Shown here: positions 1,480 through 19,127 of the stretch, one piece after another | Numbering within the stretch: the stretch's first letter is position 1 | Layout: each line of letters starts with the position of its first letter | From: an uncultured Candidatus Saccharibacteria bacterium | GTDB lineage: Bacteria; Patescibacteriota; Minisyncoccia; UBA6257; UBA9933 | Length of the DNA: 34,457 nucleotides | Assembly (NCBI GenBank): GCA_964488305.1 | Contig: CAZAUC010000001.1 | Span: 3,305 to 37,761 of the forward strand | Direction: 5' to 3' | The notes under the pieces: generated by a model | The model's database searches: none | What the model was told of the DNA's origin: nothing | The model's input: the letters and a program-made list of their open reading frames with translations, nothing else | Position numbers and translations under genes: made by a program

Positions 1480-1554
1480 TCCCAGCATTAATTCAAGGAT
1501 TAATTCAGGGATTTTGAAATAATTTGACGCTGGCTTAATGTTAATAAAGAGCCC

Positions 1555-1584
1555 TTGACATTTACCGGTCCTTTGCGCTATAAT
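1555..1584 (+). promoter_or_regulatory. sigma70-type promoter (TTGACA, 18-nt spacer, TATAAT)
   Basis: Perfect -35 TTGACA at 1555-1560 and perfect -10 TATAAT at 1579-1584, in a gene-free region. Confidence 0.6.
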
Positions 1585-1590
1585 ACCTTT

Positions 1591-1719
1591 AGTGAGTGTG
1601 AGTTTTCCTTGTCGTCAAGACGCAAGTCGCGATGAAATCCAAGGAAAGCCTTTCCAGTACCCCCACCACTTTGCCCGCAAAATCATACCTGTTGGTAAAG
1701 TGGTGGGGGTTTTTGTTTT
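1591..1719 (+). ncRNA. candidate small RNA of unknown family (promoter to intrinsic terminator)
   Basis: Starts just downstream of the consensus promoter. Contains mutually exclusive hairpins (uuccuug/caaggaa versus ggaaag/cuuucc). Ends in a 13-bp stem (cccccaccacttt 1660-1672 with aaagtggtggggg 1697-1709) followed by a T-run at 1710-1719. No plausible ORF. Confidence 0.35.
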
Positions 1720-1856
1720 AGTTGTTATATTTCAATATATTTGGCATAATTACTTAGGGCAGTTGGCTAATGAAAGCGTCTTAGAGAATAGAAAAAGACA
1801 TTAAAATTGGTTCACCCAAGCGGCCACGAGAGAGAACTCATTTTTTAAGATGAACT

Positions 1857-1929
1857 GTGTCAGCGGCTGCGGGTACGAGCACTCACTAAGTAAAAAAAAC
1901 TGGAGGTCACCAACCGCAGTCGCTGACAC
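1857..1929 (+). other. 16-bp stem / 41-nt loop hairpin in a gene-free region
   Basis: gtgtcagcggctgcgg (1857-1872) pairs with ccgcagtcgctgacac (1914-1929) with a single G-U pair. Function unknown. Confidence 0.4.
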
Positions 1930-1998
1930 CTATTTTCATCTAAAAAAGTTTCCCATAAGCCTTGTTTTTTCCTGCTAAGCGCCACTGCCCCTGTTTTG

Positions 1999-2027
1999 TT
2001 GACAGCAGGTCTTAATTCTGCTATGTT
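1999..2027 (+). promoter_or_regulatory. sigma70-type promoter (TTGACA, 17-nt spacer, TATGTT) upstream of the rplC operon
   Basis: -35 TTGACA at 1999-2004 and -10 TATGTT at 2022-2027. Confidence 0.5.
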
Positions 2028-2260
2028 TTACATTACTGGAATAAATAAAATGACAATGTTTACCCTGCAACTATCCGCGAAAAATGAGCGGTTTAGTTGG
2101 CGAGGGTCCCGTCTATATCCCGAAACAAAGTTTGATAACTTTTCAGATATTGTTTCGCGGAAATACGGGGTCGCGCCCATTAATCTCATTTTATTCGGGA
2201 TATGGGCGGTGATCCCGGGATAAAAAATTTAAATAGAAAGATTTAGCCAATAAAAATCCA

Positions 2261-2293
2261 AAAACAGCCGGCTAAGTCTGGCTGTTTTTGTTG
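2261..2293 (+). terminator. intrinsic terminator / possible attenuator in the rplC leader
   Basis: Stem aaaacagcc / ggctgtttt with loop ggctaagtct, followed by tttttgttg. Lies about 90 nt upstream of the rplC ATG. Confidence 0.55.
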
Positions 2294-2983: not shown

Positions 2984-3062
2984 AAAGTTCATAAGGTTTA
3001 TAAAGCCCATAAAGATTCATTTTACTTTAGAAACTTTATAACTTTATAAACTTTTAACTTTA

Positions 3063-3692: not shown

Positions 3693-3790
3693 TCATACGA
3701 AAATACGAAAACATACGAAATATACGAAAAATAAAATAAAAAACTTTCGTACGTTCGTATAAATTCGTACTTTCGTAAGTAAGCGAAGCG

Positions 3791-4201
3791 ATGACTATTT
3801 TGAACAGATTAAAATCAAAAAAAGATAAAACACAGACGAGAAAGGCGGACAGCTCGGACGAAGCGCGCGGAAAGCAGGGCCCGGCCGTTGTCGCCGAGGG
3901 CGGACAGACAGCTATTCCGCGCCACTCCGCGTTATTGATTAGACAGCCGTGGGTGACGGAAAAGGCGGGTGATTTGTCGGCTTTGGGAAAATACGTTTTC
4001 ATAGCCGACAAGAAAACGAATAAAGCAGAAGCCAAAAGAGCCATTGAATCAATTTACGGCGTAAACGTGGAAAAGGTTAACGTTGTCAATATCAAAGGCA
4101 AGGCAAAGAGATTGGGGCGGAGCTTGGGACGGACTTCAGCCCATAAGAAAATAATTGTGACACTGAAGGAGGGCCAAAAAATTGACATTATGCCAACGTA
4201 A
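3791..4201 (+). CDS. rplW: 50S ribosomal protein L23 with about 45-aa N-terminal extension
   Basis: The C-terminal approximately 90 aa (IRQPWVTEKA...YVFIADKKTNKAEAKRAIESIYGVNVEKVN...KKIIVTL) are L23-like. No internal ATG is available. Confidence 0.85.
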   Translation: MTILNRLKSKKDKTQTRKADSSDEARGKQGPAVVAEGGQTAIPRHSALLIRQPWVTEKAGDLSALGKYVFIADKKTNKAEAKRAIESIYGVNVEKVNVVNIKGKAKRLGRSLGRTSAHKKIIVTLKEGQKIDIMPT

Positions 4202-4327
4202 AAAAATTAAAATTGAAAAATCAAAAATTAAAATGACAATGAAAAATTAAAAATTGGCAAAAGTTAAAATTTTTTCGCCAATGGCGAATACCTAAATTTT
4301 ACATTTTGATATTTACATTTTGAATTT
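4200..4327 (+). repeat. AT-rich MITE-like repeat, copy A (rplW-rplB spacer)
   Basis: About 128 nt, nearly identical to 11756-11888. Contains an internal hairpin (ttcgcc aat ggcgaa) and inverted terminal words (atcaaaatg / cattttgat). Confidence 0.85.
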
Positions 4328-5167: not shown

Positions 5168-5259
5168 AATCTCTAATCAATCGCGAATTCTTTTCTAATA
5201 ATCCCGAATAAAATAAATTAGAGACAATTCGTGATGAAATTAGAGATTGATTAGTGATT

Positions 5260-6108: not shown

Positions 6109-6146
6109 AGGGCTTGGTCCCCGCTAAGCGGGGTTATCAAACCTTT
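6109..6146 (+). repeat. partial copy (first hairpin only) of the post-stop-codon element
   Basis: agggcttggtccccgctaagcggggttatcaaaccttt lies directly after the rplV TAG. A C-to-T change relative to the 214-bp copies keeps the pairing as G-U. Confidence 0.7.
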
Positions 6147-6163
6147 ATTTTAATCACATTGGC

Positions 6164-6835: not shown

Positions 6836-6911
6836 AAGTTCATCAGGTTCATAAAGTTTATAAAGTCAACTTTATAAACTTTAAAACTTTACAAACTTTA
6901 TAGACTAATTA

Positions 6912-8255: not shown

Positions 8256-8349
8256 ACTGACTAACAACTTACAACTAACAACTAACAACTAACGACAAGA
8301 CGGAATTTAAAAAAATCGTAGGTTGTAAGTCGTAAGTCATAAGTTAAAT

Positions 8350-8664: not shown

Positions 8665-9156
8665 ATGAAAAAGAATTCAAACAAAAGCGAAACAATAAAA
8701 AAGATAGTGGTTAATGTCGGCATTGGAAAAATGAGCCAGCAGCCCAATTTTGAAGAGAAAGTTCTGCCGGAACTGACAAAAGAAATTTCTTTGATTACCG
8801 GCCAGAAACCGGCCATCACCAAGGCCAAAAAATCAATTGCCGGATTTAAAACGAGAGAGGGCCAGACGGTTGGTTTGAAAGTTACCCTGAGACGTCAGCG
8901 GATGTTGGATTTCTTGGAAAGATTGAATAAAATTGTCTTACCCAGGCTGAGAGATTTCCGCGGAATCAATTTGAAGAGCGTGGACAATAAGGGAAATTTG
9001 AACATCGGTTTGCGGGAGCAAATGGTCTTTCCAGAAATAAACCCTGAATCTTCCAGGATTGATTTTGGCCTGGAAATCACGATTGTCGGCGACACCAAGA
9101 ACAGGGAAGAGGCAATACAATCATTCAGAAATATGGGAATACCATTAAAAAAGTAA
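8665..9156 (+). CDS. rplE: 50S ribosomal protein L5 (short N-terminus)
   Basis: KKIVVNVGIGK...ITKAKKSIAGFKTREGQTVGLKVTLR...RDFRG motifs. No in-frame start lies further upstream. Confidence 0.92.
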   Translation: MKKNSNKSETIKKIVVNVGIGKMSQQPNFEEKVLPELTKEISLITGQKPAITKAKKSIAGFKTREGQTVGLKVTLRRQRMLDFLERLNKIVLPRLRDFRGINLKSVDNKGNLNIGLREQMVFPEINPESSRIDFGLEITIVGDTKNREEAIQSFRNMGIPLKK

Positions 9157-9317
9157 AGGGCTTGATTTGAATTTTTCAGTTTGCCGAAGGCAAACGGAAA
9201 AATTCAACATTCAAGCCTTTACCGAGCACATAGTATTGTTTTATAACCTTAGTGGTAATTTACAAATAAAACAAACAATTTTAAAGAATTTCTGTTAGAC
9301 AATACTATGTGCTCGGT
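9157..9317 (+). repeat. divergent paralogue of the post-stop element (two long hairpins) in the rplE-rpsN spacer
   Basis: Hairpin 1 spans about 9157-9220 (gggcttgatttgaattttt...aaaaattcaacattcaagccc-like). Hairpin 2 is a perfect 19-bp inverted repeat, accgagcacatagtattgt (9221-9239) with acaatactatgtgctcggt (9299-9317). Confidence 0.75.
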
Positions 9318-9376
9318 GCTCAATCTTATGATAAAATTTATTTCACCAAAGGTTCATAAATTTAAATAACATTGGC

Positions 9377-9562
9377 ATGGCAAAAAAATCAGTTATTGCG
9401 CGAGCAAAGAAAAAACCAAAATATTCCACACGGGTTGTCCGCCGCTGTTTTAAATGCGGTCGCAAACGCGGCTATCTGGGTGATTTCGGGTTGTGTCGGA
9501 TTTGTTTCAGGGAAATGGCAAGTCGCGGAGAGATACCCGGCGTTAAAAAAGCGTCATGGTAA
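9377..9562 (+). CDS. rpsN: 30S ribosomal protein S14, type Z (zinc-binding)
   Basis: 61 aa with [10 protein letters not shown]...CRICFRE, giving two CxxC pairs. Confidence 0.95.
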
Positions 9563-9769
9563 GGGCTTGGTCCCCGCTAAGCGGGGCTACCAAACCTTTA
9601 CCCAGCCCTTTCTATAAAAAACGTCAGAAAGGGCTGGGTGCTCAGTTTTATCACCCCGCCAAAATTTCAACATAATATAATGGTAGATTTTAAGATAAAA
9701 ATATTTTATTGTTTATCGTACCACCCCGCTAAATTCAAAGAAATTTAGGCGGGGATAAAAATGGCATGT
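9556..9769 (+). repeat. 214-bp structured intergenic element, copy 1 (rpsN-rpsH spacer)
   Basis: Read base by base as identical to 10140-10353. It includes the upstream gene's last sense codon (TGG) and TAA stop codon and the downstream gene's ATG. Confidence 0.95.
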
Positions 9770-10146
9770 ATATACAATTATTAACTCAACTTAAGAATGG
9801 CCAGTTGGTGAAAAAAGAAAGCGTTAAAGCCGCTTATTCCGTGATGGATGAAAAAATTTTAAAATTATTGAAAGAAAATGGTTATATTAAAGATTTTGAA
9901 AAAAAAGGAAGGGGAGCGAAGAAAATATTGGACGTTAAACTGAAATATGACAATGGCCAAGGGGTAATCTCCGGAATTAAATTTATCAGCAAACCGTCGT
10001 GCCGGATTTATATAGGTTATAAAGAAATAAAACCGGTTAAACACGGTTATGGATTACTGATAATTTCAACTCCCCGGGGGATTATAACTAATAAACAGGC
10101 GAGAAAAATGAAGGTCGGCGGCGAGGCATTATTTAAAATATGGTAA
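9766..10146 (+). CDS. rpsH: 30S ribosomal protein S8
   Basis: 126 aa. The C-terminus ...GYGLLIISTPRGIITNKQARKMKVGGEALFKIW is a typical S8 end. Confidence 0.93.
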   Translation: MYIQLLTQLKNGQLVKKESVKAAYSVMDEKILKLLKENGYIKDFEKKGRGAKKILDVKLKYDNGQGVISGIKFISKPSCRIYIGYKEIKPVKHGYGLLIISTPRGIITNKQARKMKVGGEALFKIW

Positions 10147-10353
10147 GGGCTTGGTCCCCGCTAAGCGGGGCTACCAAACCTTTACCCAGCCCTTTCTATA
10201 AAAAACGTCAGAAAGGGCTGGGTGCTCAGTTTTATCACCCCGCCAAAATTTCAACATAATATAATGGTAGATTTTAAGATAAAAATATTTTATTGTTTAT
10301 CGTACCACCCCGCTAAATTCAAAGAAATTTAGGCGGGGATAAAAATGGCATGT
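10140..10353 (+). repeat. 214-bp structured intergenic element, copy 2 (rpsH-rplF spacer)
   Basis: Identical to 9556-9769. Confidence 0.95.
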
Positions 10354-10895
10354 CTAAAATAGGAAAAAAACCAATAATTATTCCCGAAAACGTTGAAGTA
10401 AAAATAAACGGCGGATTTTTGGAATTTAAAGGGAATAACGGAAATTTAAGCGTAAAAATTCCCGTTTATATAAAAGCGGAGATAAAAGAAAAGACGCTTT
10501 CGTTTTCTCCGGAAAATAATTCCAAGCAGGCGCGTGCTAATTGGGGCACAATTAGGTCGCTGGCTTATAACGCTATCGTCGGCTTGACCGAAGGTTTCAA
10601 TAAAAATTTAGAAATTGAAGGAGTCGGTTACCGGGCGAATATGGAAGGAGAAACTCTAGTTTTAAATCTAGGGCTATCTCACCCGATTAAATTTACTCCT
10701 CCCCAAGGCATAAAAATTTCGGTCGAAAAAAACGTTATCAAAATTTCCGGCGTTGACAATGCTTTGGTCGGCCAGGTAGCCGCCAAAATTAGGGCTTTTA
10801 AAAAACCCGAACCCTATAAAGGTAAAGGCATTAGATATCAAGGCGAGGTGGTCAGAAGGAAAGCCGGCAAGAAAGTAGCGGGTACGACTGCCTAA
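10350..10895 (+). CDS. rplF: 50S ribosomal protein L6
   Basis: MSKIGKKPIIIPENVEVKING... and ...KPEPYKGKGIRYQGEVVRRKAGK. Confidence 0.95.
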   Translation: MSKIGKKPIIIPENVEVKINGGFLEFKGNNGNLSVKIPVYIKAEIKEKTLSFSPENNSKQARANWGTIRSLAYNAIVGLTEGFNKNLEIEGVGYRANMEGETLVLNLGLSHPIKFTPPQGIKISVEKNVIKISGVDNALVGQVAAKIRAFKKPEPYKGKGIRYQGEVVRRKAGKKVAGTTA

Positions 10896-11325: not shown

Positions 11326-11808
11326 ATGCGGGAATTAAAAAAACAAAGTGAATTCAAAGAAAAAGTCATTGATTTGAGACGTGTTACGCGGGTGGTGGCA
11401 GGCGGTAAAAGATTTCGTTTTCGGACGACAGTAATTATTGGTGATGAAAAAGGCAGAGTGGGAGTGGGTATTGCCAAGGGAGTTGACGTGGCCCAATCGG
11501 TTGAAAAAGCCAAGGTCAGCGCCAAAAAGAGACTGATGAGGATTCCTCTTAAAGACAGAACCATTCCTTATGAAGTGGAGGCAAAATTCAGCGCCGCCCG
11601 GGTAATGATTAAGCCGGCTCGGAAAGGCCACGGTCTTAAGGCGGGCGGAGCAGTCAGGGCGGTTTTGCTTTTGGCTGGAATAAGAGACGCTACTGCTAAG
11701 TGTTTGGGCGGCACGAAAAATAAACTGACTAATGCGATGGCAACAATGAGAGCGTTAAAAAAATTAAAAATTGAAAAATCAAAAATCAAAATGACAATGA
11801 AAAATTAA
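11326..11808 (+). CDS. rpsE: 30S ribosomal protein S5
   Basis: VIDLRRVTRVVAGGKRFRFRTTVIIGD...GHGLKAGGAVRAVLLLAGI. The last approximately 15 codons lie inside an AT-rich repeat element. Confidence 0.94.
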   Translation: MRELKKQSEFKEKVIDLRRVTRVVAGGKRFRFRTTVIIGDEKGRVGVGIAKGVDVAQSVEKAKVSAKKRLMRIPLKDRTIPYEVEAKFSAARVMIKPARKGHGLKAGGAVRAVLLLAGIRDATAKCLGGTKNKLTNAMATMRALKKLKIEKSKIKMTMKN

Positions 11809-11888
11809 AAATTGGCAAACGTTAAAATATTTTCGCCAATGGCGAAATACCTAAATTTTACATTTTGATATTTACATTTTGAATTTTA
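11756..11888 (+). repeat. AT-rich MITE-like repeat, copy B (rpsE 3' end to rplO)
   Basis: Same element as 4200-4327 apart from a few substitutions and indels. The rpsE stop codon (11806-11808) lies inside it. Confidence 0.85.
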
Positions 11889-12318: not shown

Positions 12319-12434
12319 ACAATTTTTCATCAACCTTTCTCTATCTTTCTCGCGCTAAAGCGCATATCTCAAAAAAGATAAAAATAGAAATAAGCTCGGC
12401 TTAAGCGCCTCGCGAGAAAAATAGAGAAAATTAT

Positions 12435-15277: not shown

Positions 15278-15383
15278 AGATATGATAATATGAGCTAAAG
15301 GTGAAAGGCTCATTGTGAGCGACCCGTATAGGCGGGGTAATAAAAGAGCCGACGGCTCTTTAAAAAAAGATAGGAGGTATGCC

Positions 15384-16145
15384 ATGAAAAATATGGTGAG
15401 CCGCACCCTGTCGGTGCACAAGGAGCACGAGCTCCTACTGAAACTGGAGACCGCAGGTCTCACAGAACCCCTTGCCCAGAAAGTTATTAGCTCGAAGGGT
15501 AACGAACTCGCTGCGAAAGTGGTGAAGTTCATTCAGAACGGCGGCTTTGAACCGACAACCAGCCAGAAGCGTGCCCGTGAAATTATGGGCAAGAACATGT
15601 TCGGTGTCGAGGAAGCTATCCAGTATTTCGGGGTTAACCCGACCCGCCAGCAAACCCTTGTTTTGTCGGAGATTCCTTTCTCTGAAGACGTACTCCAAAA
15701 AGCAAAGGATACTCACGTTCTGATAGCCGTCTTTCCGCTCTCGGTTCTCGAGATTCGCGGGAAAGTGGATTCCAAGTTGTTCTACAGCCAGTCGTGGTAT
15801 AACAAAGAATCATTCGCCAAGGAACGCGGTGAAATAAGTTGGCAACTGGTTCGCAAGACGCCGGTGGACAACTCCACCTCAAAGAACTGGGAAGAGCAAT
15901 TAGTTTTTATTTCAGAAGAGGACGAAGTTCCGACAGCCCAAGTGATGGTTTATACCATCATCGGTCATTATCTGGATACTGGCGAACGTCTGTTCGAGCA
16001 CATCTACGTCCGAACATCATCTGTGGATTCGGATGGCCGCCGTGTTGACGTCGGCAACTTCGTTTCGTATGGTCTCTATGTCAGCCACTACTGGGATGGC
16101 CTCAGCAGTGACGACATCGGTGTCTCGTCCGCTCGGAAGTTCTGA
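15384..16145 (+). CDS. DGR variable (target) protein with C-terminal CLec-like VR and no signal peptide
   Basis: ATG at 15384 is preceded by AGGAGG at 15373-15378. The ORF track instead starts at GTG 15315. The C-terminus ...YWDGLSSDDIGVSSARKF carries the VR. The gene is visibly more G+C-rich than its neighbours. Confidence 0.8.
   Translation: MKNMVSRTLSVHKEHELLLKLETAGLTEPLAQKVISSKGNELAAKVVKFIQNGGFEPTTSQKRAREIMGKNMFGVEEAIQYFGVNPTRQQTLVLSEIPFSEDVLQKAKDTHVLIAVFPLSVLEIRGKVDSKLFYSQSWYNKESFAKERGEISWQLVRKTPVDNSTSKNWEEQLVFISEEDEVPTAQVMVYTIIGHYLDTGERLFEHIYVRTSSVDSDGRRVDVGNFVSYGLYVSHYWDGLSSDDIGVSSARKF
16022..16143 (+). repeat. DGR variable repeat (VR) including the IMH-like 3' end
   Basis: Matches TR at an offset of 484 nt. 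It differs at 16099, 16101, 16102, 16108 and 16113, where TR has A in every case, and at 16139 (G versus TR C). Confidence 0.9.
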
Positions 16146-16183
16146 ACCTTGAAGACTTGAGAACTTGATTCTCTTGAGTCCTT

Positions 16184-16227
16184 GAGCCTTCGGCGATATT
16201 TTCGCAGGAGGCTCTTTTCTTTTTTTA
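16184..16227 (+). terminator. intrinsic terminator after the target gene
   Basis: gagcct (16184-16189) pairs with aggctc (16209-16214), with an inner gcga/tcgc stem. Followed by a T-rich run at 16215-16227. Confidence 0.6.
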
Positions 16228-16505
16228 AAATATCCTATAAAATACAAACGTCTGCTAATGAAGGTTAGACTACGGTTTAACCTCGCGGGCGTCTCATCTT
16301 TGAGATATCGCCAGAGTATCGTTGTTTACGGATAATGGTAGCGTGTGATAAAAGATGGAGATTGAACTTCTTGCTTGTCTTTAGAGGAGATGTTCTGGAT
16401 TTATTTCAGGGTTGCTCCCGAATAAAATACAGGAATGAGAGGATATAGGTCTTTTAAGGCGGTAAACCTCTATTTCCAGTGACAGGGATGAAGATAGGCA
16501 AATAA

Positions 16506-16627
16506 TGTGGATTCGGATGGCCGCCGTGTTGACGTCGGCAACTTCGTTTCGTATGGTCTCTATGTCAGCCACTACTGGGATGACAACAGCAATGACAACA
16601 TCGGTGTCTCGTCCGCTCGGAACTTCT
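16506..16627 (+). repeat. DGR template repeat (TR)
   Basis: Non-coding copy of the VR. It reads GAC AAC AGC AAT GAC AAC where the VR reads GGC CTC AGC AGT GAC GAC. Confidence 0.9.
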
Positions 16628-16686
16628 TTCTCTGTCTGACCTTTTAATACCCTCCTTATTCGGGGAGTATTTCGTTTATCGTTCAG

Positions 16687-17052
16687 TTATTCTTTTGTTG
16701 ATTTAATCCATCCCCCAAGCATTTTTCCGATTTCCTGCAATTTTTCTTGTAGGATGAGATATTTTTTATTATCCAACGATTTAATTTCATTAGATAATCT
16801 AATTAGTATCTTTAATAAACTGATTTTGGCGTCTATTTTCCTAAGATGCGTTAATTTTTCTTGTTTCGGCAAATAAAAAGTTTTTATTGAAAGTTCTAAG
16901 GTGTCTAAAATTAAATTTTCAATCTTTTGACCCAAAGAATACTTCTCTATTTTCGGGAAAAACCTAACGTAGTCGTGAAATAATTTATAGAATTCACAAA
17001 TCTTATGCACCAACGGCGCATCAAATTTAGAAAATCCTGCGGGGGGGGGCAT
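16687..17052 (-). CDS. avd: Avd-like four-helix-bundle accessory protein (23S rRNA IVS protein family)
   Basis: 121 aa. FPKIEKYSLGQKIENLILDTLE...IGKMLGGWIK matches the four-helix-bundle / DGR accessory variability determinant pattern. The start is ATG followed by C9. Confidence 0.8.
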   Translation of the reverse strand: MPPPAGFSKFDAPLVHKICEFYKLFHDYVRFFPKIEKYSLGQKIENLILDTLELSIKTFYLPKQEKLTHLRKIDAKISLLKILIRLSNEIKSLDNKKYLILQEKLQEIGKMLGGWIKSTKE

Positions 17053-17113
17053 TCATAGAAATAAATTTAAAATTCAAAAATCAAAATGTAAAATTTATGA
17101 CCGAATAATTTCA

Positions 17114-17584
17114 TTGGAAAATTTATTTTTAGCTTGGCAAGAATTCCGGCAAGGTAAAAGAAATAAACAGGATGTTCAAGAATTTGAATTCAATTTGGAA
17201 GACAACCTTTTTAACCTTCACCGAGAATTAAAAGCCAAAATATACCGACATTCTAATTATACCGCATTTTCAATATGTGATCCAAAGCCGCGGCGTATTC
17301 ATAAAGCCTGCGTTCGCGACCGAATATTACACCACGCCGTTTTCCGAATTCTATACCAGATTTTTGACAAAAATTTTATTTTTGATTCATATTCGTGCCG
17401 CTTAGCTAAAGGGACGCACCGCGCAGTAAATAGATTAGGAAAATTTTGCCGCCAAATAAGCAAAAACAATCGCCAAAACATTTTTGCCTTGAAATGCGAC
17501 ATTAAAAAGTTTTTTGATTCAGTTAGCCAAAATATTTTATTAGAACTTATTAAGAGCAAAATCCGAGACGAGAACACTTTATGA
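17114..17584 (+). CDS. DGR reverse transcriptase, N-terminal fragment (ends at the in-frame TGA 17582-17584)
   Basis: ENLFLAWQEFRQGKRNK...DPKPRRIHKACVRDRILHHAV...KCDIKKFFDSV correspond to RT motifs 1-3. The TTG start is uncertain, because the frame stays open and conserved-looking (KIYDRIISL) upstream back to 16991. Confidence 0.85.
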   Translation: MENLFLAWQEFRQGKRNKQDVQEFEFNLEDNLFNLHRELKAKIYRHSNYTAFSICDPKPRRIHKACVRDRILHHAVFRILYQIFDKNFIFDSYSCRLAKGTHRAVNRLGKFCRQISKNNRQNIFALKCDIKKFFDSVSQNILLELIKSKIRDENTL

Positions 17585-17632
17585 TTAATTACGAAAATTG
17601 TTAAAAGTTTTGAAAAAACTAGAAATCAAGGT

Positions 17633-18151
17633 TTGCCTTTGGGCAATGTCACCAGCCAATTATTTGCCAATATCTATTTAAATGAATTAGATCAATTTAT
17701 TAAACATAAATTAAAAATTAAATATTATCTTCGCTATTGCGACGATTTCGTGATTTTAAGCGAAAATAAAAAATATTTAATTGACCTAATTCCTTTGATT
17801 AGTAATTTTCTAAAAGATAAATTGAAATTGATGCTTCATCTTGATAAAATAATTATCAGGAAATACCATCAGGGCATTGATTTTCTTGGCTACGTTATAT
17901 TGCCGCATTACCGCGTTCTGCGGACAAAAACAAAAAGGAAGATATTAAGGAAAATTATCGGAAAAAACAGGGATTTTCAAGACAACCTGATATTCGAAGA
18001 ATCTTTTAACCAAACTTTACAATCTTATTTTGGCGTTTTAAAACATTGTCAGGGATATAAGATTAGACAGAGAATCCTATATTGTTTAAAACAACAAAGT
18101 AGTGGACATTCTCAACAAGATAACCTAAAATTAAACATTGATAATAATTAA
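17633..18151 (+). CDS. DGR reverse transcriptase, C-terminal fragment (same frame as 17114-17584)
   Basis: Contains LPLGNVTSQLFANIYL (the DGR-typical SQ motif 4), RYCDDFVIL (YxDD catalytic motif) and GIDFLGY. The frame is open back to 17585, immediately after the TGA. Confidence 0.85.
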   Translation: MPLGNVTSQLFANIYLNELDQFIKHKLKIKYYLRYCDDFVILSENKKYLIDLIPLISNFLKDKLKLMLHLDKIIIRKYHQGIDFLGYVILPHYRVLRTKTKRKILRKIIGKNRDFQDNLIFEESFNQTLQSYFGVLKHCQGYKIRQRILYCLKQQSSGHSQQDNLKLNIDNN

Positions 18152-18981: not shown

Positions 18982-19127
18982 CGGGTAACGCAAGGTCTAA
19001 TGCTGGGGACATCCGATATCCAAAATATTAACGTTAATTTTGGGACATTGGATGTTCAAAAGTTAATAATTTTAACACTTTAAATTGTCATTTTAATCTT
19101 TGATTTTTGCATTTTGTATTTATTATT

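What the first reader, a model, noticed from the sequence alone, without database searches (positions are those of the whole stretch)
9556..10353. Perfect 214-bp direct repeat brackets rpsH inside the spc operon
Segments 9556-9769 and 10140-10353 read as identical base for base. Each runs from the last Trp codon (TGG) and TAA stop codon of the upstream gene (rpsN, then rpsH) to the ATG and the following base of the downstream gene (rpsH, then rplF). An essential gene is therefore flanked by 100% identical direct repeats.

Such repeats would be substrates for deletion or duplication by recombination. Perfect identity implies very recent duplication, ongoing gene conversion or strong selection. 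Assembly artefact must also be excluded.

Each copy folds into at least three strong hairpins: ggtccccgc-taa-gcggggctacc, cccagccctttc/gaaagggctggg, and ccccgctaaatt/aaatttaggcgggg. Alternative pairing partners (three ccccgc segments versus two gcgggg segments) overlap the only SD-like sequence (ggcgggga) upstream of each ATG. That resembles a translational switch or an r-protein autoregulatory site. In E. coli, S8 regulates the spc operon by binding its mRNA.
Basis: seen in the sequence. Interest (0 to 1): 0.65.

Follow-up and report, generated by a model that had tools for sequence, protein, structure and literature searches.

The report
Transplanted rplE leader cassettes bracketing rpsH
The two identical 214-base segments around the essential S8 gene are real copies of a folded RNA leader that originally sat in front of the neighbouring L5 gene; in this group of tiny uncultured bacteria it has repeatedly been copied in front of other ribosomal-protein genes.

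Summary
Window 9556-9769 and 10140-10353 are identical over 214 nt, and independent metagenome assemblies rule out an artefact.

The repeat belongs to a family found in Wolfebacteria-like Patescibacteria. Each member fills a whole spacer from stop codon to start codon. It lies in the sense orientation and folds into three abutting helices, P1, P2 and P3. The window holds four members: rplE>rpsN, rpsN>rpsH, rpsH>rplF and a truncated rplV>rpsC.

The backbone is the leader between rplX and rplE plus the first nine codons of rplE. In relatives it sits at that native site, where P3 pairs the leader with codons 2-9. Copies in front of other genes keep these codons, at up to 22 of 24 identity. Two copies fused them in frame, which gave chimeric S5 and L24 N-termini.

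P3 shows strong covariation. Another species has 242 identical nt on both sides of rpsH, so re-copying or gene conversion recurs.

Function is inferred. The most likely role is a cis-acting, Shine-Dalgarno-independent module that controls translation initiation. The canonical S8 binding motif is absent, no Rfam family matches, and the element has no MITE features.

The parts
9556..9769 (+). Exact repeat, copy 1. It covers the last base of the penultimate codon, then TGG and TAA of rpsN, the 203-nt cassette A1 and ATG+T of rpsH.
10140..10353 (+). Exact repeat, copy 2. It covers the end of rpsH, the 203-nt cassette A2 and ATG+T of rplF. This is the derived copy: the closest relative, L022, has only 9 nt at this junction.
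9560..9600 (+). P1 of A1. The base helix TAAGGGCTTGG/CCAAACCTTTA includes the rpsN stop codon. The apical hairpin is GTCCCCGC-TAA-GCGGGG. The C.A mismatch in the helix is conserved across the family. The equivalent in A2 is 10144-10184.
9601..9638 (+). P2 of A1, a perfect 13-bp stem CCCAGCCCTTTCT/AGAAAGGGCTGGG with a 12-nt loop, abutting P1 with no linker. The equivalent in A2 is 10185-10222. Relative to CCCCGCCC/GGGCGGGG in L022 it carries a compensatory G-C to A-T change.
9639..9766 (+). P3 of A1. Box 1 is at 9637-9644 (GGTGCTCA). The 5' arm is 9652-9668 and the 3' arm 9740-9754. The last 11 nt, ATAAAAATGGC (9755-9765), are a remnant of rplE codons. The A of the rpsH AUG (9766) closes the helix. 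The equivalent in A2 is 10223-10350.
9722..9736 (+). Internal duplicate of the P3 5' arm (CACCCCGCTAAATTC). This is the minor alternative (-76.1 against -80.5 kcal/mol). The equivalent in A2 is 10306-10320.
9157..9376 (+). Paralogous cassette EN, filling the rplE>rpsN spacer. P1 is 9156-9220, P2 is 9221-9317 (a 21-bp stem of unrelated sequence) and P3 is 9318-9376. The stretch 9353-9376, TTCATAAATTTAAATAACATTGGC, matches rplE codons 2-9 of relatives at 22 of 24 positions.
6109..6163 (+). Truncated cassette filling the rplV>rpsC spacer. It has only P1 (6109-6147), which is 95% identical to P1 of A1/A2 in the window and 100% identical in strain L021. It ends with CATTGGC directly before the rpsC ATG.
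9377..9562 (+). rpsN (S14, 61 aa)
9766..10146 (+). rpsH (S8, 126 aa), bracketed by the repeats
10350..10895 (+). rplF (L6, 181 aa)
8665..9156 (+). rplE (L5, 163 aa). In this genome it has no leader cassette: the rplX>rplE spacer is 9 nt. Its N-terminus MKKNSNKSE is homologous to the MFKNLNKIG encoded by the cassette's 3' arm.

Best explanation
**What it is (shown).** The two 214-nt segments are paralogous copies of a roughly 203-nt structured intercistronic cassette. The cassette belongs to a family restricted to Wolfebacteria-like Patescibacteria, meaning relatives with at least about 71% S8 identity.

The family's backbone is the leader between rplX and rplE plus the first nine codons of rplE. 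The layout runs in this order:
- the stop codon;
- P1, which is AAGGGCTT, a variable apex, then AAACCTTT;
- P2, which is ACCC, a variable perfect stem of 10-23 bp, then GGGT;
- P3, in which box 1 (GCTCAAT followed by an AAATTT stretch) pairs with rplE codons 2-9 (TTCAAAAATTTAAATAAAATTGGC).

At the native site the rplE AUG lies in the P3 loop.

This unit has been copied into other junctions of the S10-spc cluster. Every copy is in the sense orientation and runs exactly from stop codon to start codon. Nested palindromes are swapped in and out of the P1 apex and P2.

In most copies the loop AUG is lost and the recipient gene's AUG abuts the 3' foot of P3. In two copies the rplE AUG and nine codons were fused in frame to the recipient gene.

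In the window genome the copy at rpsN>rpsH, which is shared with the nearest relative, was re-copied or converted into rpsH>rplF. That event produced the perfect repeat.

**How it works (inferred).** On the polycistronic mRNA the three abutting helices form a compact cis-acting module. In an organism that lacks Shine-Dalgarno sequences, this module probably sets or regulates translation initiation of the downstream cistron. It acts as a portable initiation region or operator, with the start codon held at the foot of P3. The factor that binds it, if any, is unknown.

Recombination between the direct repeats would delete rpsH. Only conversion products survive.
For: **The repeat is real.**

**A family with a shared architecture.** Fourteen members come from ten genomes. 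The linkers between stop, P1, P2, P3 and ATG are 0 nt in 11 of the 14.

**Covariation**
- P3 across 11 distinct sequences: 94.9% of cells are paired, against 82.4 +/- 1.4 in shuffles (0 of 500 reach it).
- 12 of the 24 P3 pairs show compensatory changes, against 6.2 +/- 1.3 in shuffles (0 of 500).
- Pairing falls to 27-47% when the partners are slid.
- P2 has at least eight unrelated stem sequences, all perfectly paired.
- The P1 base varies as TTGGT/ACCAA, TTTGT/ACAAA and TTTCT/AGAAA.

**Origin from rplE**
- Native rplE begins ATG TTC AAA AAT TTA AAT AAA ATT GGC in L027, L025, L100, L102 and L103.
- The 24 nt before the recipient ATG match this at 22 of 24 (win_EN, L022) and at 18-19 of 24 (L102, L100, L025).
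- At least 13 L5 protein clusters share this N-terminus, so the codons are native to rplE.
- L103 has a compact operon whose one large spacer is the complete cassette at rplX>rplE.
- Chimeras: L023 S5 begins MFKNSNKIG+KNEYKEK, where its sister genome has MEPKR+KNEYKEK. L104 L24 begins MFKKSNKIR+KGDIVKII, where relatives have MKIH+KGDTIKII.

**Mobility and turnover**
- L023 and L025 are 94-97% identical in their genes but carry the cassette at different junctions, and the P2 loop is flipped between them.
- L022 (87% S8 identity) has a 9-nt spacer where the window has copy 2.

**Concerted evolution**
- The two rpsH-flanking copies in L102 are 100% identical over 242 nt, with 13 differences confined to P1.
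- The P1 of the rplV>rpsC copy is 95% identical to A in the window strain and 100% identical in strain L021.

**Other points**
- SD cores precede only 2 of 35 window genes.
- The single-base population variants avoid breaking predicted pairs, and A39G repairs the C.A mismatch in P1.
Against: - Function is not demonstrated. No expression, processing or binding data exist.
- Sense and antisense folding energies and G.U counts show no strand bias in this family. Selection for DNA palindromes cannot be separated from selection for RNA helices on that test.
- Strain L002 tolerates a 49-nt deletion that removes half of P2 and box 1 from copy 2. At least that copy is partly dispensable.
- A start codon held at the foot of a long helix would normally inhibit initiation rather than promote it.
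- The 'zero exterior nucleotides' measure discriminates only weakly from shuffles, whose median is about 10.
- Distribution outside ribosomal clusters could not be tested genome-wide, because the metagenome scan returned only the same locus.
- The rpsH-flanking copies in L104 are only 72-81% alike, so homogenisation is not universal.
Confidence: 0.6

Rival explanations
1. Selfish or neutral palindromic DNA. The cassettes are non-autonomous mosaic repeats, similar to REP/BIME or MITE elements, that spread by recombination or by an unknown transposase. They persist in the operon only because they fold back and cause no polar effect, and they have no regulatory role.
For: - Nested palindromes with recurring CCCAG...CTGGG ends appear in different positions.
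- A P2 loop is inverted between sister genomes, which is a DNA-level event.
- There is no sense/antisense bias.
- Turnover between 95%-identical genomes is rapid.
- Strain L002 tolerates a deletion in copy 2.
- Nearly every spacer in these operons holds some hairpin.
Against: - All independent placements are in the sense orientation and run exactly from stop to start.
- There are no terminal inverted repeats and no target-site duplications.
- No transposase or RAYT gene lies in the window.
- The backbone is a gene's own leader plus its first codons.
- P3 pairing is kept by compensatory changes after the 3' arm is released from coding constraint.
- None was found outside ribosomal clusters in about 227 kb held.
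Confidence: 0.2
2. Autogenous operator bound by a ribosomal protein (S8 as in E. coli, or L5). The rplE operator was duplicated so that each cistron is repressed directly.
For: - The native position is the rplE start, the same place as the E. coli S8 operator (PMC4176348).
- The helix is conserved and covarying, and it involves the start region.
- A conserved 2-nt purine bulge in P3 and a conserved C.A mismatch in P1 could be recognition features.
Against: - The canonical S8 seven-nucleotide loop is absent from all cassettes. There was 1 relaxed hit against 1.25 expected by chance, and the positive control was recovered.
- No Rfam leader family matches.
- Only architecture and short boxes are conserved; the rest of the sequence turns over.
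- No 16S or 5S rRNA of this organism was available to test mimicry.
Confidence: 0.15
3. Transcriptional insulator. Each cassette ends the upstream transcript or marks a processing site at P1/P2, and restarts transcription from an internal -10-like element in the 5' arm of P3. Transcripts that start inside the cassette lack that arm and so have a free start codon.
For: - -10-like sequences lie just after box 1: TGATAAAAT in EN and L022, TATAAT in L027, TAAAAT in L023 and L103.
- The geometry TAAAAT, then 9 nt, then ATG occurs at native and chimeric starts.
- A weak TTATCA-17-CATAAT lies at 9648-9676 and 10232-10260.
Against: - Promoter-like sites are not more frequent than in shuffles (22 against 17.1 +/- 4.7), and there is no -35 element.
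- No terminator-like hairpin followed by a T-run lies in the element.
- The only clear promoter in the window has both hexamers (1555-1584).
- The -10-like stretch is explained by its complementarity to rplE codons.
- It is not conserved as TAnnnT in all members.
Confidence: 0.1
4. Assembly artefact: a single spacer was wrongly placed twice.
For: Several contigs from other samples break inside the repeat.
Against: - Two independent contigs span both copies.
- Copy-specific variants and a copy-specific deletion exist.
- All four junctions are covered by contigs.
- The same arrangement occurs in L102 and L104, which are other species from other samples.
Confidence: 0.01

Closest known systems
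E. coli spc-operon translational operator for S8 at the rplE start
   Same: - The native location is the leader and start of rplE inside the spc operon.
- It is a helix that involves early rplE nucleotides.
- It lies in an operon where downstream cistrons depend on translational coupling (PMC4176348).
   Different: - The conserved seven-nucleotide S8 loop (A595 A596 G597 / U641 A642 C643 U644) is absent.
- There are three abutting hairpins rather than one interrupted helix.
- The unit has been duplicated in front of six other cistrons.
- The effector is unknown.
- The E. coli element is reported to be confined to Gammaproteobacteria. I know this from the title of PMC3616713 and from memory; I did not read the text of that paper.
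rpsA (S1) leader of Gammaproteobacteria: an SD-less initiation region built from three successive hairpins (from my own knowledge)
   Same: A highly structured leader of three consecutive hairpins drives or regulates initiation without a Shine-Dalgarno sequence, with the start codon beside the last hairpin.
   Different: There is no sequence or Rfam similarity. The rpsA leader is not known to be duplicated within operons. The resemblance is recalled from memory, not tested.
REP/BIME, ERIC/IRU and Correia elements: intercistronic palindromic repeats (PMC2817692 for REP/RAYT; the rest from my own knowledge)
   Same: - Short non-coding palindromic repeats inside transcribed operons.
- Mosaic, nested composition.
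- Copies within a genome resemble each other more than copies between genomes.
- Possible effects on mRNA stability or translation.
   Different: - The backbone derives from a gene's own leader plus coding sequence.
- Orientation is strictly sense and the boundaries run from stop to start.
- There are a few copies clustered in one operon rather than hundreds.
- There are no TIRs or TSDs.
- No RAYT gene was seen.
Mycobacterial interspersed repetitive units, MIRU (from my own knowledge)
   Same: Intercistronic repeats within operons, oriented with transcription, whose ends coincide with the stop and start codons of the flanking genes.
   Different: MIRUs are 40-100-bp tandem units that carry small coupled ORFs. 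Here there is no conserved ORF, no tandem array, and a large conserved secondary structure instead.

Membership tests
Ribosomal-protein autoregulatory leader (generic) | Lies in the 5' leader or start region of a ribosomal-protein gene | tested here: met
   The native copies sit at rplX>rplE in L027, L100, L103 and L105. Transplanted copies abut the starts of rplX, rpsN, rpsH, rplF and rpsE.
Ribosomal-protein autoregulatory leader (generic) | Conserved secondary structure supported by covariation | tested here: met
   In P3, 12 of 24 pairs are compensatory and 94.9% of cells are paired; 0 of 500 shuffles reach either value. P2 has at least 8 different perfect stems. Caveat: the alignment was fitted to the model, and the sequences are related.
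Ribosomal-protein autoregulatory leader (generic) | Mimics the rRNA site of the regulating protein and is bound by it | not testable with these tools
   No rRNA of this lineage was available and no binding assay is possible. Only the S8 motif could be tested (see the rows below).
E. coli-type S8 operator of the spc operon | Helix interrupted by the seven conserved nucleotides AAG / UACU, with A596-U644 and G597-C643 paired and A642 invariant (PMC4176348) | tested here: not met
   The motif search over 11 cassettes gave one relaxed hit against 1.25 expected by chance. The E. coli h21 positive control was recovered.
E. coli-type S8 operator of the spc operon | Matches a curated RNA family | tested here: not met
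   Rfam at gathering threshold gave 0 hits in the window. The E-value scan of 9100-10400 gave only microRNA-like noise far below threshold.
MITE | Terminal inverted repeats | tested here: not met
   The first 30 nt against the reverse complement of the last 30 nt gave 10-18 of 30 matches, which is chance level for AT-rich sequence.
MITE | Target-site duplication flanking the insert | tested here: not met
   Comparing filled and empty junctions (window against L022 and L007) shows that the cassette replaces the whole spacer between stop and start, with no duplicated flank.
MITE / REP-type dispersed repeat | Many copies dispersed around the genome in either orientation | tested here: inconclusive
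   No copy lies outside ribosomal clusters in the window or in about 227 kb of loci. However, no complete genome was available, and the one metagenome scan returned only the same locus.
REP/BIME | Associated RAYT (tyrosine transposase) gene | tested here: inconclusive
   No transposase or RAYT was found among the 20 window ORFs scanned with Pfam. The rest of the genome was not seen.
MIRU | Small ORF within the unit whose ends overlap the flanking stop and start codons, and tandem 40-100-bp units | tested here: not met
   The longest internal ORFs are 26-63 codons and are not conserved between members. No tandem units were found.
Intrinsic terminator | G+C-rich hairpin followed directly by a T-run | tested here: not met
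   No terminator-like site falls in 9556-9769 or 10140-10353 on the + strand.
Sigma-70 promoter | -35 and -10 hexamers at 16-18 nt spacing | tested here: inconclusive
   There is a weak TTATCA-17-CATAAT (9 of 12) at 9648-9676 and 10232-10260. Counts over the region are not above shuffles.
Integron attC site | RYYYAAC and GTTRRRY core sites at the two ends | tested here: not met
   Both core sites are absent in all 9 members tested. One member (L023_RE) has only the 5' core, RYYYAAC.
Segmental duplication with concerted evolution (gene conversion) | Paralogues within a genome are more alike than orthologous positions between genomes, and identity tracts are mosaic | tested here: met
   In the window the two copies are identical at 214 of 214 positions. 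In L102 the copies are identical at 242 of 242 positions, next to 13 differences in 60 nt. The orthologous rpsN>rpsH spacers of the window and L022 align only in patches, while the flanking genes are 85-89% identical. The rplV>rpsC P1 switches between 95% and 100% identity to A among strains.

The most novel reading that the evidence does not exclude
A structured, Shine-Dalgarno-independent translational operator or initiation region native to rplE has been duplicated in front of several other cistrons of the S10-spc cluster in a CPR lineage. Each cistron thereby gained its own copy of the same control element, in place of the tight translational coupling seen in compact relatives. In two cases the transfer rewrote the N-terminus of another ribosomal protein. 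The copies are kept alike by gene conversion. This would be operon-wide regulation that evolved by copy-and-paste of an operator, with one trans-acting factor (a ribosomal protein or an initiation factor) reading all copies.
Probability: 0.3. Interest if true: 0.8.

Novelty: new variant of a known kind. Interest (0 to 1): 0.65.

Why it matters
- It identifies a previously undescribed conserved RNA structure at the rplE start in Patescibacteria. No Rfam family matches it, and my literature searches found nothing similar.
- It shows a rare evolutionary process. A gene's leader, start codon and first codons were transplanted as a unit in front of other essential genes, and twice this produced chimeric ribosomal-protein N-termini.
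- It explains how perfect direct repeats can flank an essential gene: only conversion products survive, because a deletion would be lethal.
- It gives a concrete handle on how translation starts and is balanced within operons in organisms that almost entirely lack Shine-Dalgarno sequences.
- For annotators: these cassettes cause contig breaks, wrong start-codon calls and spurious ORFs in CPR ribosomal-protein operons, which are the standard phylogenetic markers. In L005 an 81-aa overlapping ORF was called in place of S14.

Tried and rejected
- **Metagenome scan.** A search with the 24-mer of hairpin 1 returned only L021, the same locus from another sample. The collection is a subset, so genome-wide dispersal stayed untested.
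- **Viral-contig scan.** A 15-mer of P2 plus box 1 gave 71 hits. All lack the partner arm and have a median GC of 64%, so they are chance matches.
- **Sense against antisense folding and G.U counts.** There is no bias in this family. Many of the other hairpin spacers actually fold better as antisense.
- **'Effective stop-to-start distance' (exterior nucleotides).** Shuffles also give small values, so the test is weak. It separates only the full-length family members.
- **tRNA-like or tmRNA features.** None were found.
- **boxA/nut-like antiterminator.** Only the pentamer TGCTC is shared with the E. coli boxA as I recall it, and that segment is base-paired in P3. I did not pursue it.
- **Link to the neighbouring diversity-generating retroelement.** L099 has the same retroelement but no cassettes, so there is no association.
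- **Literature.** Searches for intercistronic repeats in CPR, for MIRU and for REP elements near stop codons gave nothing directly applicable.
Full report
**1. The observation**

Window 9556-9769 and 10140-10353 are identical over 214 nt. The identity stops exactly at both ends. Each copy begins A-TGG-TAA, the end of rpsN and of rpsH. Each ends ATG-T, the start of rpsH at 9766 and of rplF at 10350. The two intergenic spacers are 203 nt each. The terminal identities are the conserved Trp-stop and start codons plus one base on each side. They may be coincidence or microhomology.

The element folds at -82.4 kcal/mol, against -49.1 +/- 4.3 for shuffles (z = -7.85).

**2. Not an artefact**

The identical S8 protein is encoded on six independent JGI contigs.
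- L005 spans both copies and matches the window exactly.
- L002 spans both copies. Its copy 1 has A39G, and its copy 2 has a 49-nt deletion that removes the 3' half of P2 and the GGTGCTCA box.
- L001 and L006 have C116A in copy 1 only.
- L003 has C32T in copy 2 only.
- L006 has a 1-nt deletion in copy 2.

Several contigs start or stop inside the repeat, as expected when a true repeat is longer than the assembler's k-mer. Three of the four substitutions lie at unpaired positions. The fourth turns the C.A mismatch of P1 into a C-G pair.

**3. The repeat is one of several cassettes**

A self-comparison of the window and a listing of all spacers in the cluster show the following.
- A third, partial copy sits directly after the rplV stop codon (6109-6147, 95%; 100% in strain L021).
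- The rplE>rpsN spacer (9157-9376) has the same framework with entirely different stem sequences. It runs: stop, AGGGCTTG, apical hairpin, CAAGCCTTT, ACC-[stem]...[stem]-GGT, GCTCAAT, an AT-rich helix, then ATTGGC and ATG.
- Other repeat families also occupy spacers (see the items noticed in passing).

**4. Organism and relatives**

The genome scan with S8 places the window among Patescibacteria, near Candidatus Wolfebacteria and Paceibacterota. The best species representative has 71% identity. In 11 of those 14 genomes the rpsN-rpsH-rplF genes are 1-25 nt apart.

Closer relatives were reached through the protein database at 87% and about 72-75% identity, and their contigs were fetched. The signature boxes occur only in relatives with at least about 71% S8 identity, and never in the more distant ones.

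**5. The family**

Fourteen members from ten genomes share one architecture, and it is recovered by independent minimum-free-energy folds of each sequence.
- P1 is AAGGGCTT, a variable apex, then AAACCTTT. Its base overlaps the upstream stop codon, and it has a conserved C.A mismatch.
- P2 is ACCC, a perfect stem of 10-23 bp in at least eight unrelated sequences with loops of 9-137 nt, then GGGT.
- P3 is GCTCAAT, an AAATTT-rich helix that closes a variable insert, then ATTGGC.
- The linkers between stop, P1, P2, P3 and ATG are 0 nt in 11 of the 14 members.

The junctions occupied are:
- rplN>rplX (L104);
- rplX>rplE (L027, L100, L103, L104, L105);
- rplE>rpsN (window);
- rpsN>rpsH (window, L022, L102, L104);
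- rpsH>rplF (window, L025/L026, L100, L102, L104);
- rplR>rpsE (L023/L024, L101, L102);
- rplV>rpsC (window, truncated).

All members lie in the sense orientation.

**6. Covariation**

A consensus fold of five P3 sequences gave 24 pairs, 8 of them with compensatory changes. The outermost pair joins the U of box 1 to the A of the AUG.

A covariance model built from these five sequences recovered members that were not used to build it:
- L023 at 60 bits;
- L022 at 56 bits;
- L103 at 51 bits;
- three copies in L104 at 48-60 bits.

On the resulting alignment of 11 distinct sequences:
- 94.9% of cells pair, against 82.4 +/- 1.4 in shuffles (0 of 500 reach it);
- 12 of 24 pairs have changes on both sides, against 6.2 +/- 1.3 (0 of 500);
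- sliding the partners drops pairing to 27-47%.

The caveats are that the alignment is fitted to the model and that the sequences are related.

The base of P1 varies as TTGGT/ACCAA, TTTGT/ACAAA and TTTCT/AGAAA. The window's P2 (CCCAGCCC/GGGCTGGG) differs from CCCCGCCC/GGGCGGGG in L022 by a compensated pair.

**7. Origin from the rplE leader**

The L023 hit of the model ran past the annotated start. That stretch matched the 5' end of rplE in L025.
- Native rplE in L027, L025, L100, L102 and L103 begins ATG TTC AAA AAT TTA AAT AAA ATT GGC (MFKNLNKIG).
- The 24 nt before the recipient ATG match codons 2-9 at 22 of 24 in the window's rplE>rpsN cassette and in L022. They match at 18-19 of 24 in L102, L100 and L025.
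- The 214-nt element keeps TTCAAAG-AAATTTA-[GGCGGGG]-ATAAAAATGGC.
- At least 13 L5 protein clusters begin M(F/I/L)KN(L/S)(N/D)KI(G/D/S)K. They diverge as a protein does and align with the MDKxLIKKIKEKFGY N-terminus of sister clades. The codons are therefore native to rplE.
- L103 has overlapping genes throughout. Its one large spacer is a complete cassette at rplX>rplE, where P3 pairs the leader with codons 2-9 and the AUG lies in the apical loop. This looks like the ancestral state.
- Two transplants kept the rplE AUG and fused the nine codons in frame. S5 in L023 begins MFKNSNKIG-KNEYKEK, against MEPKR-KNEYKEK in its sister L025. L24 in L104 begins MFKKSNKIR-KGDIVKII, against MKIH-KGDTIKII in relatives.

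**8. Turnover and concerted evolution**

- L023 and L025 are 94-97% identical in their genes but carry the cassette at different junctions. The roughly 80-nt P2 loop is inverted between them.
- L022, the nearest relative at 87%, has the cassette only at rpsN>rpsH. It has 5 nt at rplE>rpsN and 9 nt at rpsH>rplF. The window's copy 2 is therefore the derived one.
- The cassette in L022 is a mosaic. Its P1 base and P2 resemble the 214-nt element, and its P3 resembles the window's rplE>rpsN cassette.
- In L102, another species from another sample, the two rpsH-flanking cassettes are identical over the last 242 nt and differ at 13 positions within P1. The P1 of its rpsH>rplF copy equals that of a third copy after rplR.
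- In L104 the corresponding copies are only 72-81% alike.

Cassettes on both sides of rpsH are therefore older than the perfect identity seen here. That identity reflects recent re-copying or gene conversion. Crossing-over between the copies would delete rpsH and be lethal.

**9. What it is not**

- No Rfam family matches.
- There are no tRNA-like features.
- There are no terminal inverted repeats, no attC core sites and no conserved ORF.
- There is no target-site duplication.
- There is no terminator in the element, and promoter-like matches are no more frequent than in shuffles.
- No transposase lies in the window.
- The canonical S8 recognition loop, as defined in PMC4176348, is absent, while the E. 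coli positive control is found.
- Only 2 of 35 window genes have a Shine-Dalgarno core, so GGCGGGGA is not a meaningful ribosome-binding site.
In the ensemble the 3' arm pairs with the upstream arm with probability close to 1.

**10. Mechanism**

Shown:
- the cassette is a copy of the rplE leader plus early codons;
- it forms a three-helix fold conserved by compensatory change;
- it is always in the sense orientation, from stop to start;
- copies are exchanged and homogenised.

Inferred: the fold acts on the mRNA as a portable, SD-independent module that initiates or regulates translation of the downstream cistron.

The unit that moves is exactly what P3 needs, namely the leader arm plus codons 2-9. 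That argues the helix, and not just any palindrome, is what is retained.

I could not discriminate between activation, repression by a protein, processing and mere tolerance. The strand-bias test was neutral, and strain L002 tolerates a partial deletion of copy 2.

My confidence is about 0.85 for the identity and evolutionary account and about 0.35 for the functional account. The stated 0.6 is a blend of the two.

**11. Novelty**

Structured ribosomal-protein leaders and intercistronic palindromic repeats are both known kinds. What I could not find described is this combination:
- a leader that carries the first codons of its gene;
- transplanted to other cistrons of the same operon;
- producing chimeric N-termini;
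- kept identical by conversion around an essential gene.

I rate it a new variant of a known kind, with interest 0.65.

Noticed in passing
window 15315-18151: A diversity-generating retroelement. The target gene is 15315-16145 (276 aa, no Pfam hit), with the variable repeat at 16022-16143. The template repeat is at 16506-16627, and 5 of the 6 mismatches fall at template adenines. A bAvd gene lies at 16687-17052 on the minus strand. The reverse transcriptase is split into two ORFs (17114-17584 and 17633-18151), so it may be frameshifted or inactivated. L099 has a similar element at the same place after the map gene.
   Followed up: partly
window 4199-4327 and 11756-11886: A second intergenic repeat family (131 nt, 96% identical) fills the rplW>rplB spacer and the rpsE>rplO junction. 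At rpsE it supplies the last 16 codons and the stop codon. The rpsE>rplO copy is present in L022 at 91.6% identity, which is higher than the flanking coding DNA at about 85%. Partial inverted matches lie near 17061-17097 and 19068-19124.
   Followed up: partly
window spacers 2984-3062, 3693-3790, 5168-5253, 6836-6911, 8256-8349, 12319-12434; also L008, L012, L014, L023, L025, L027: Nearly every other spacer of the S10-spc cluster holds a long hairpin whose arms are tandem 7-8-nt units, for example TACGAAA/TTTCGTA, CATAAAG/CTTTATA and TAACAAC/GTTGTAA. The same TACGAAAA hairpin lies at rplD>rplW in the window and at rpsH>rplF in L008. Many of these fold better as the antisense strand, because the sense strand has A.C mismatches. 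A further type has a conserved base, GCGATTC...GGCATCG(G/A)TT.
   Followed up: partly
window 1480-2287: An 808-nt stretch with no convincing gene lies upstream of rplC. It contains a perfect sigma-70 promoter, TTGACA-17-TATAAT, at 1555-1584. rpsJ and tuf, which precede rplC in relative L100, are absent here. No Rfam match was found. The TTG start listed for rplC at 2288 is probably too far upstream.
   Followed up: partly
window, all genes: Only 2 of 35 genes have a GGAG, GAGG or AGGA core within 20 nt upstream of the start codon. The organism appears to initiate translation largely without Shine-Dalgarno pairing.
   Followed up: partly
L023:6785-6814 and L104:2896-2925: Chimeric ribosomal proteins. 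S5 in L023 and L24 in L104 begin with the first nine codons of L5 (MFKNSNKIG and MFKKSNKIR) in place of their own first 4-5 residues.
   Followed up: yes
window 8665-9156; L025:61-555; L100:9172-9666: L5 of the window, L025 and L100 (163-164 aa) lacks a roughly 17-residue N-terminal segment, KIKEKFGYKNDLEIPRM, that is present in L027, L102 and most relatives. The conserved N-terminal nonapeptide is joined directly to (K/T)(L/I)(E/K)KIVVNVG.
   Followed up: no
L100:9020-9171, L025:1-60: An extra roughly 150-nt palindrome (CCCAGTAGTGAG...CTACTACTGGG) sits between a first ATG and the rplE ATG, flanked by TATG on both sides. Similar CCCAG...CTGGG ends recur in P2 and P1-apex inserts of several cassettes, which suggests a separate small hairpin element that nests inside the cassettes.
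   Followed up: no
L104:3291-3419: A 42-aa ORF with a weak GIY-YIG match lies inside the 784-nt rplX>rplE spacer of L104. It may be a remnant of a homing endonuclease.
   Followed up: no
L005:354-599 (= window 9372-9617): In one public assembly the gene caller reported an 81-aa ORF in another frame that runs into the cassette, in place of the 61-aa S14 gene. This is an example of how these cassettes disturb annotation.
   Followed up: no
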